A program made the position numbers and the translations under genes. The notes beneath the pieces are model-generated. The model did no database searches, was not told the origin of the DNA, and saw only the letters and a list, made by a program, of their open reading frames with translations. Of a stretch of DNA of 64,000 nucleotides, positions 57,253-57,446 are shown one piece after another (the stretch's first letter is position 1; each line of letters begins with the position of its first letter). Source of the DNA: Eledone cirrhosa (lineage: Eukaryota). The DNA lies in the NCBI GenBank assembly GCA_964016885.1, contig OZ024761.1:4464001-4528000 (forward strand). Reading direction: 5' to 3'.

Positions 57253-57446
57253 AGCGAGGGAAAAGTGGTAAGGAACCAGGTGGACCATAACGCACCAAAG
57301 TACTCAATACTTAGGGTAGTAGAGTGGGAAATAGGAGTAAGTAAGACCCCGACGGCTGAGCTCAAGCCGTTTCGACGGCTAATTCTGTACAGAATTAGCC
57401 GTCGAAACGGCTTGAGCTCAGCCGTCGGGGTCTTACTTACTCCTAT
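57253..57446 (-). mobile_element. Fold-back family B copy with a perfect ~58-bp-arm hairpin
   Basis: 57330-57446 is a near-perfect palindrome centred on gctaattctgtacagaattagc, with an ~80-bp tail on the left. Lies in (TA)n. Confidence 0.85.

What the first reader, a model, noticed from the sequence alone, without database searches (positions are those of the whole stretch)
57253..57446. Fold-back family that appears to snap back at stem II of a hammerhead ribozyme
Seen: six copies (9022, 16775, 24192, 28572, 57253, 60092) lie in (TA)n, built as an ~80-bp tail plus a ~55-bp arm and its mirror. Each arm reads [central hairpin]-GAAACGGC(ttgagctca/t)GCCGTC-GGGGTC. That is the 3' half of an HHR: stem II, GAAA, stem III ACGGC/GCCGT and a GUC cleavage triplet. 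Where CUGANGA should be, there is instead the mirror image of stem III. Inferred: reverse transcription of a PLE-type RNA passes stem II, the cDNA self-primes on that hairpin and copies itself, giving fixed-size palindromic insertions. This would tie ribozyme structure directly to integration. I do not know of this being described. No full-HHR parent is visible in the window.
Basis: partly seen in the sequence, partly recalled or inferred. Interest (0 to 1): 0.75.

Follow-up and report, generated by a model that had tools for sequence, protein, structure and literature searches.

The report
Penelope stubs mark RNA start, cut
These small hairpin insertions are stubs of a common Penelope-type jumping gene, a known pattern; their halves stop inside the loop of its hammerhead ribozyme, likely because the RNA begins there rather than because the copy snaps back on the ribozyme stem, and a second group starts exactly at the ribozyme's predicted cut, a hint that it cuts in the living animal.

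Summary
All six copies are real, but only three have both arms and size is not fixed. They are 5'-truncated insertions of a Penelope-like element with Hydra-clade motifs. A full tandem parent (RT plus GIY-YIG, 3.7 kb) lies elsewhere in the genome. It carries a whole type I hammerhead whose core is UUGANAA (U3-A8), not CUGANGA. An inverted 5' copy plus a one-sided tail is a published PLE layout.

Self-priming on stem II is not supported: 0 of 121 two-armed copies keep the whole loop. Arms end inside the loop at an initiator-like TCAGT/TTAGT, with an extra G in 18 of 100 (control 3 of 100), the likely mark of a capped RNA start. The tail-less arm reaches further than the tailed arm as often as the reverse (16 v 16 of 62). 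This favours two cDNAs primed from both sides of the (TA)n break and joined head to head. 27 of 52 other stubs start exactly at the predicted ribozyme cut. No RNA data were available. This scan noted the same pattern before in other genomes.

The parts
57254..57333 (-). 80-nt tail (+59 to +138 from the inferred RNA start). Its two edges are the fixed outer and inner copy ends, each at a TA.
   Evidence: tailed part is 136 of 138 nt identical to parent L190
57334..57390 (-). Tailed arm, +2 to +58: 3' part of the stem II loop, stem II 3' strand, GAAA, stem III, GUC cut site, stem I 3' strand
57387..57390 (.). Self-complementary GTAC shared by both arms; junction with no loop
   Evidence: 325 places; 17 of 88
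57387..57443 (+). Tail-less (mirror) arm, +2 to +58; predicted cut between 57426 and 57427; ends on (TA)n
9022..9157 (+). Two-armed copy of a diverged subfamily; tail departs from the family after 20 nt
16775..16896 (-). Mirror arm joined directly to the tail; no direct arm
24192..24382 (-). Two-armed copy; arms end at +3 and +7 with a 2-nt overlap
28572..28712 (-). Single arm plus tail, starting at +1/+2 on (TA)n
60092..60228 (+). Mirror arm ending at +1 joined to the tail at the inner TA (twin-priming-like form)
   Evidence: 317 places of this form in the genome
9406..9454 (+). Diverged tail-like fragment
   Evidence: 82-86% over 49 nt

Best explanation
The copies are short insertions of a Penelope-like retrotransposon in (TA)n, each likely made from two cDNAs primed on the two sides of the break that likely ran off the capped start of the element's RNA and were then joined head to head. 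Shown: the parent is pLTR-ORF-pLTR, and the two outer ends are fixed at +58 and +138. The inner ends pile up at +1, a TCAGT/TTAGT motif inside the stem II loop, and a second pile sits at +42, the predicted cut. Inferred: transcription starts at +1, so the 5' repeat of the RNA holds only the 3' half of the ribozyme and both priming sites lie within 138 nt of the cap. Copying from them gives 58- and 138-nt run-off cDNAs, joined by microhomology. GTAC lies at both 3' ends, which explains the loop-free palindrome. Copying from the 3' repeat gives the kb-long forms. The complete ribozyme in a read-through RNA likely cleaves, giving stubs that start at +42.
For: Parent found: L189, L190, L114, L117. 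Subfamily sample of 88 loci: 67 tailed arms end within -17..+7, 9 in the stem II 3' strand, 4 far upstream. Extra G before +1 in 18 of the first 100 of 969 (TA)n-adjacent ends (A 7, C 13, T 62); before +5 in 3 of the first 100 of 262 (counted by eye; p=0.0008, or p=0.012 on untemplated bases only). An extra G marks capping in L1 junctions (PMC11702581, passage). Mirror arm further 16, tailed further 16 of 62; general set 13 v 13 of 38. Tail-less arm is the kb-long one in L115 and L117. Mirror-plus-tail-only form at 317 places, 38 of the first 100 joined exactly at the inner TA. Loop-free GTAC centre at 325 places; centre variants T/A 17, T/T 5, A/A 4, A/T 1. 27 of 52 loci start exactly at +42, next position at most 5. 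PAc extends both strands from two internal starts that bound the tail (PMC11167929).
Against: No chimera of two common subfamilies was seen: 98 of 125 two-armed copies have identical stem I segments and the rest look like point changes. This fits snap-back or one RNA used twice, not two RNAs drawn from a pool. Asymmetric deletion after insertion could also make a mirror arm longer or remove one arm. About 10 of 88 tailed arms end 1-7 nt upstream of +1, and one mirror arm at -17, so the start is not single. Where both arms reach +1, the base before +1 is G in only 6 of 20 arms. The hammerhead is not the lowest-energy fold (-18.3 v -27.7 kcal/mol, z -1.4) and Rfam finds no hammerhead in the parent. 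No RNA evidence.
Confidence: 0.65

Rival explanations
1. One cDNA from the tail end runs off the RNA start, snaps back on itself by short homology, copies itself to +58, and later deletions reshape the centre.
For: Both arms come from the same subfamily. Snap-back after full-length cDNA is seen for R2 proteins (PMC11371274, passages). Self-priming is proposed for PLE palindromes (PMC3846280, passages). Small templated inserts occur at junctions.
Against: Loop-free and 1-nt-loop centres cannot be primer hairpins. The mirror arm is longer as often as shorter, kb longer in L115 and L117. 317 copies have no direct arm to copy from. It does not explain the fixed stop at +58.
Confidence: 0.17
2. One reading: the cDNA passes stem II, folds on that hairpin and self-primes.
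For: Ends cluster in the stem II region; the parent has a long stem II.
Against: It predicts products that keep the whole 30-35 nt loop: 0 of 121 (the two main loop types were searched). Most arms never reach the 5' strand of stem II.
Confidence: 0.03
3. The ends mark a reverse-transcriptase stall (structure or bound protein) or a 3' splice site (the parent reads pyrimidines then AG at +1/+2), not a transcription start.
For: Ends spread from -17 to +10. PLEs carry introns in the pLTR (PMC2377424, passages).
Against: The extra G is specific to +1. In 13 of the 18 G cases the G sits directly on (AT)n, with no upstream exon sequence.
Confidence: 0.1
4. The 194-nt palindrome is a non-autonomous master element copied as a unit.
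For: 40 of 40 scored hits are 99-100% identical over the whole length; 325 identical centres.
Against: Only 17 of 88 subfamily copies have that centre and the gap between arms takes 16 values. The centre occurs on both tail haplotypes (11 and 4, against 32 and 26 in other copies).
Confidence: 0.04
5. DNA transposon (MITE or foldback type) with TA target duplication.
For: Inverted repeats with TA at both ends.
Against: One-sided tail, 5' truncation, and a parent coding RT plus GIY-YIG with no transposase.
Confidence: 0.01

Closest known systems
EN+ PLE insertion with inverted 5'-truncated copy and one-sided tail (PMC8557442 Fig. 2 legend and passages; PMC3846280 passages)
   Same: Head-to-head inverted copy, tail at one end only, partial tandems, palindromes at the junction
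   Different: Tail is 80 nt, not 30-40. Most copies are 140-200 nt stubs. The passages read do not map junctions to an RNA start or cut site; PMC3846280 invokes self-priming on an antisense template.
Hydra clade of PLEs (PMC8557442 section 11 and File S1/S2, part 2 of 59 read; includes Hydra-1_Obim)
   Same: C-terminal GIY-YIG, RWR (RWK-like), DKT, CxCx5C, CxxC and CxH motifs, no CCHH, (TA)n target
   Different: Unit is 3.6-3.7 kb, not under 3 kb. All Hydra ribozymes listed there have a CUGANGA core and short stems; this one has UUGANAA, a 30-35 nt loop II and a 5-6 bp stem III. It differs from the Hydra-1_Obim ribozyme.
Poseidon PAc in vitro (PMC11167929, parts 1-2 of 4 read)
   Same: Two internal RT starts bound the tail; both DNA strands are extended; starts lie near the RNA 5' end
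   Different: PAc starts are not homologous to the cut DNA, whereas here both starts sit at a TA. That study found no reads at the ribozyme cut; here genomic stubs pile up there.
U3-A8 hammerhead variant of Cercyon PLEs (PMC4209133, passages)
   Same: U3-A8 in place of C3-G8 in a PLE repeat; palindromic loop III
   Different: Here not minimal: long stems II and III, in a different PLE clade
L1 twin priming and cap-derived extra G (PMC11702581 passage for the G; twin priming recalled)
   Same: Second priming from the other target strand; extra G at a complete 5' end
   Different: Second start is fixed and the two cDNAs usually overlap

Membership tests
EN+ Penelope-like element | One ORF with RT followed by GIY-YIG endonuclease | tested here: met
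   L189, L190, L114, L117 by motif reading; copies have frameshifts or stops. Pfam found no family.
EN+ Penelope-like element | pLTRs in direct and inverted orientation, one-sided tail | tested here: met
   L189: inverted, direct, ORF, direct, tail
EN+ Penelope-like element | Hammerhead in the pLTR | tested here: met
   34 parent arms
Hydra clade | RWK and DKT motifs, CxCx5C linker, CxxC and CxH, no CCHH | tested here: met
   Read by eye against PMC8557442 section 11; RWR stands for RWK
Hydra clade | (TA)n target | tested here: met
   29 of 30 loci in (TA)n, one in a (TATC)n-like run
Hydra clade | Canonical CUGANGA hammerhead and length under 3 kb | tested here: not met
   UUGANAA core; 3.6-3.7 kb unit. 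The paper gives these as usual traits, so I say 'Hydra-type motifs', not proven member.
Hydra clade | Placement in an RT tree | not tested
   No reference proteins were fetched
Type I hammerhead ribozyme | Core with 3-8 pair, free position 7, G10.1-C11.1, GAAA, UH, three stems | tested here: met
   U3 33/34, A8 33/34; position 7 C19 A10 G3 T2; positions 4, 5, 6, 9 invariant (upstream anchor, not the core, was the search condition; many arms are close relatives)
Type I hammerhead ribozyme | Active fold is stable; Rfam match | tested here: inconclusive
   Not the lowest-energy fold; no Rfam hammerhead hit
Type I hammerhead ribozyme | Self-cleavage | not testable with these tools
   Indirect only: 27 of 52 stubs start at the cut
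Non-LTR retrozyme | Tandem non-coding units each with a whole hammerhead | tested here: not met
   Stubs hold half a ribozyme; tandem parent codes a protein; definition from 10.64898/2026.07.22.740005 part 1
MITE / DNA transposon | Terminal inverted repeats at both ends, fixed size, transposase parent | tested here: not met

The most novel reading that the evidence does not exclude
This PLE starts its RNA inside loop II of its own U3-A8 hammerhead, so the 5' repeat can never self-cleave while the 3' repeat does. Every insertion is built from two target-primed cDNAs, and tens of thousands of stubs record both the cap and cleavage in the living animal. This would replace self-priming as the cause of PLE inverted repeats.
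Probability: 0.45. Interest if true: 0.65.

Novelty: new member of a known kind. Interest (0 to 1): 0.42.

Why it matters
How PLEs form inverted repeats, and whether their hammerheads cut in vivo, are stated as open in PMC8557442 and PMC11167929. This young, abundant family gives countable fossil evidence on both, with exact positions to test: +1, +42, +58 and +138. The layout itself is known, and this scan has noted the same footprint in other genomes, so the value is as a clean test case.

Tried and rejected
CTGANGA parent searches: one search gave 36 hits, 30 read, all junction by-products or pieces of other elements. One search gave 23 hits, none of this family. The CTTCAG extension was taken for parent sequence but is mostly junction sequence (6 hits, 1 parent). 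Rfam found no hammerhead in the window or parent. No tRNA gene in the window. The PLE at window 26246 is not the parent (no similarity). One search failed on a pattern error. One search dropped 27 of 88 identical loci by over-strict de-duplication and was replaced. One search ran through the imperfect palindrome and over-called ends at -4. An early reading of a cap G at copy 9022 was dropped. Paper searches listed no paper mapping PLE fold points to a capped start or a ribozyme cut; the library lacks most subscription papers.

Full report
Observation. Three have two arms (57253, 24192, 9022), one is arm plus tail (28572), and two are a mirror arm joined directly to the tail (60092, 16775). The window lies in a 3.0-Gb animal genome rich in (TA)n; an octopus type is my guess. 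The family has 41,665 exact arm-tail junctions, and the subfamily of 57253 has 817 (reversed controls 0). All 40 scored hits of the 194-nt copy are full length at 99-100%; 29 of the 30 read lie in (TA)n.

Parent. The predicted CTGANGA parent was not found. Extending the arm upstream gave 719 exact hits, 30 read. L189 is inverted repeat, direct repeat, ORF, direct repeat, tail, with a 3.7-kb unit; L190 is a 3.6-kb tandem. The tailed part of copy 57253 is 136 of 138 nt identical to L190. The ORF has an RT core, a C-terminal GIY-YIG and the motifs RWR, DKT, CxCx5C, CxxC and CxH without CCHH, as listed for the Hydra clade (PMC8557442 section 11). Pfam found nothing and no tree was built.

Ribozyme. 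In 34 parent arms the core is UUGANAA in 32; position 7 takes all four bases while 4, 5, 6 and 9 are invariant (many arms are close relatives). The U3-A8 swap is known from Cercyon PLEs (PMC4209133, passages). Stem II is long and its loop is 30-35 nt. Stem III and the palindromic GAGCTC in its loop persist in diverged subfamilies. Against: the active fold is 9 kcal/mol above the lowest-energy fold and Rfam gives no hit.

Where the arms end. Numbering takes the A of TCAGT/TTAGT in loop II as +1; the cut falls before +42 and the fixed outer ends are +58 and +138. I sampled 88 of the first 100 listed of 817 subfamily copies; 2 more are the L190 pair, left out of the tally, and 10 were not fetched. 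Tailed arms end within -17..+7 in 67, in the stem II 3' strand in 9, at +19..+39 in 5, at the cut in 3 and far upstream in 4. In a general set of 64 junctions, 7 did not parse; 29 of 57 end within -17..+7 (a few calls are wrong through divergence). No copy keeps the whole loop next to a mirror arm (0 of 121 short two-armed copies in all loci), which is what self-priming on stem II predicts.

Cap signature. Among (TA)n-adjacent ends at +1, the base before is G in 18, A in 7, C in 13 and T in 62 of the first 100 of 969; 47 of the T cases continue the repeat, and C or T can be templated. Before +5 it is G in 3 of the first 100 of 262. Counts are by eye; p=0.0008, or 0.012 on untemplated bases only. 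An extra G reflects capping in L1 junctions (PMC11702581, passage). That TCAGT is an initiator is recalled; an Inr-like motif in a pLTR is noted in PMC3846280. Against: some arms end upstream of +1, and in double +1 junctions G precedes only 6 of 20 arms.

One cDNA or two. The script found a mirror arm in 62 of 88 (one, L164, is a neighbouring insertion; about 10 more are visible by eye). The mirror reaches further than the tailed arm, beyond the overlap, in 16, and the reverse in 16; general set 13 and 13 of 38. In L115 and L117 the tail-less arm is the kb-long one. 317 places have a mirror arm plus tail only, and 38 of the first 100 join exactly at the inner TA (by eye). The commonest centre is a loop-free GTAC (325 places; 17 of 88), found on both tail haplotypes. 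PAc extends both strands from two starts bounding the tail (PMC11167929). Against: no subfamily chimera in 125 two-armed copies, and later deletion can mimic asymmetry. One RNA copied from both sides fits all of this. Three loci join this arm head to head to the same piece of another ribozyme-bearing element (L031, L043, L049); this is suggestive, but they came from a biased search.

Cut site. The first 100 lines of 366 are 52 loci. 27 start exactly at +42, 4 at +43, 5 at +44, 6 at +40/41, 7 at +38/39, 2 at +35/36, and 1 is unclear (by eye; p about 4e-14 against an even spread over 10 positions). A few pairs may be local duplicates, and a stall at the edge of the G run is not excluded. The capped RNA lacks the core, so cleavage would occur in the 3' repeat of a read-through RNA (inference).

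What was read. PMC11167929: parts 1-2 of 4. PMC8557442: passages, section 11, supplement part 2 of 59. 10.64898/2026.07.22.740005: part 1 of 5; its supplements are closed and could list related cases. PMC3846280, PMC4209133, PMC2377424, PMC11371274, PMC11702581: passages. Searches listed no paper mapping PLE fold points to a cap or cut. Earlier notes of this scan report the same footprint in other genomes and in other families of this genome; my reading was written before that look-up, and those notes are not evidence.

Verdict. Known PLE layout, new family with Hydra-type motifs and a U3-A8 hammerhead. Interest 0.42.

Noticed in passing
window 26200-28290: A different PLE (P0001, RT plus GIY-YIG, Neptune-like cysteine motifs by eye) with an inverted copy of its 3' end at its 5' end; seven copies of that 3' end in the window.
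   Followed up: partly
window 18633-19684 (-) and 31038-32021 (+): Two broken PLE fragments 35-51% identical to the parent's RT and endonuclease: other families of the same type.
   Followed up: no
L031, L043, L049 near 1300-1510; L039; L051: This family's arm is joined head to head to pieces of other elements; in three loci the partner is the same inverted piece with a canonical-core hammerhead, ending at the same base. Possibly cross-family two-cDNA insertions.
   Followed up: partly
window 663-837, 8431-8627, 25332-25522, 30704-30888, 32028-32221, 60810-60998 and others: A dispersed family of about 180-190 bp; a tRNA-like stretch at 930-987 scores 26.1 bits, below Rfam's 29. SINE-like.
   Followed up: no
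window 3121-7179, 10800-12671, 35584-40614, 41141-50769, 52677-54628: Large tandem arrays with units of about 57, 50, 65, 37/74, 38 and 60-72 bp.
   Followed up: no
window 55821-56780 (+): 320-codon open frame matching ODAD1 coiled coil (PF21773, E 3e-12), a probable host gene or retrocopy 500 bp from the finding.
   Followed up: no
L158 1395-1540 (-): Parent arm with core UUGAAGA and a stem II 5' strand that suits a different subfamily's 3' strand; possibly a recombinant switched near +1.
   Followed up: no
L189 3600-3930 and 7270-7640: The parent's 3' UTR holds a short internal tandem repeat whose copy number differs between the two repeats.
   Followed up: no
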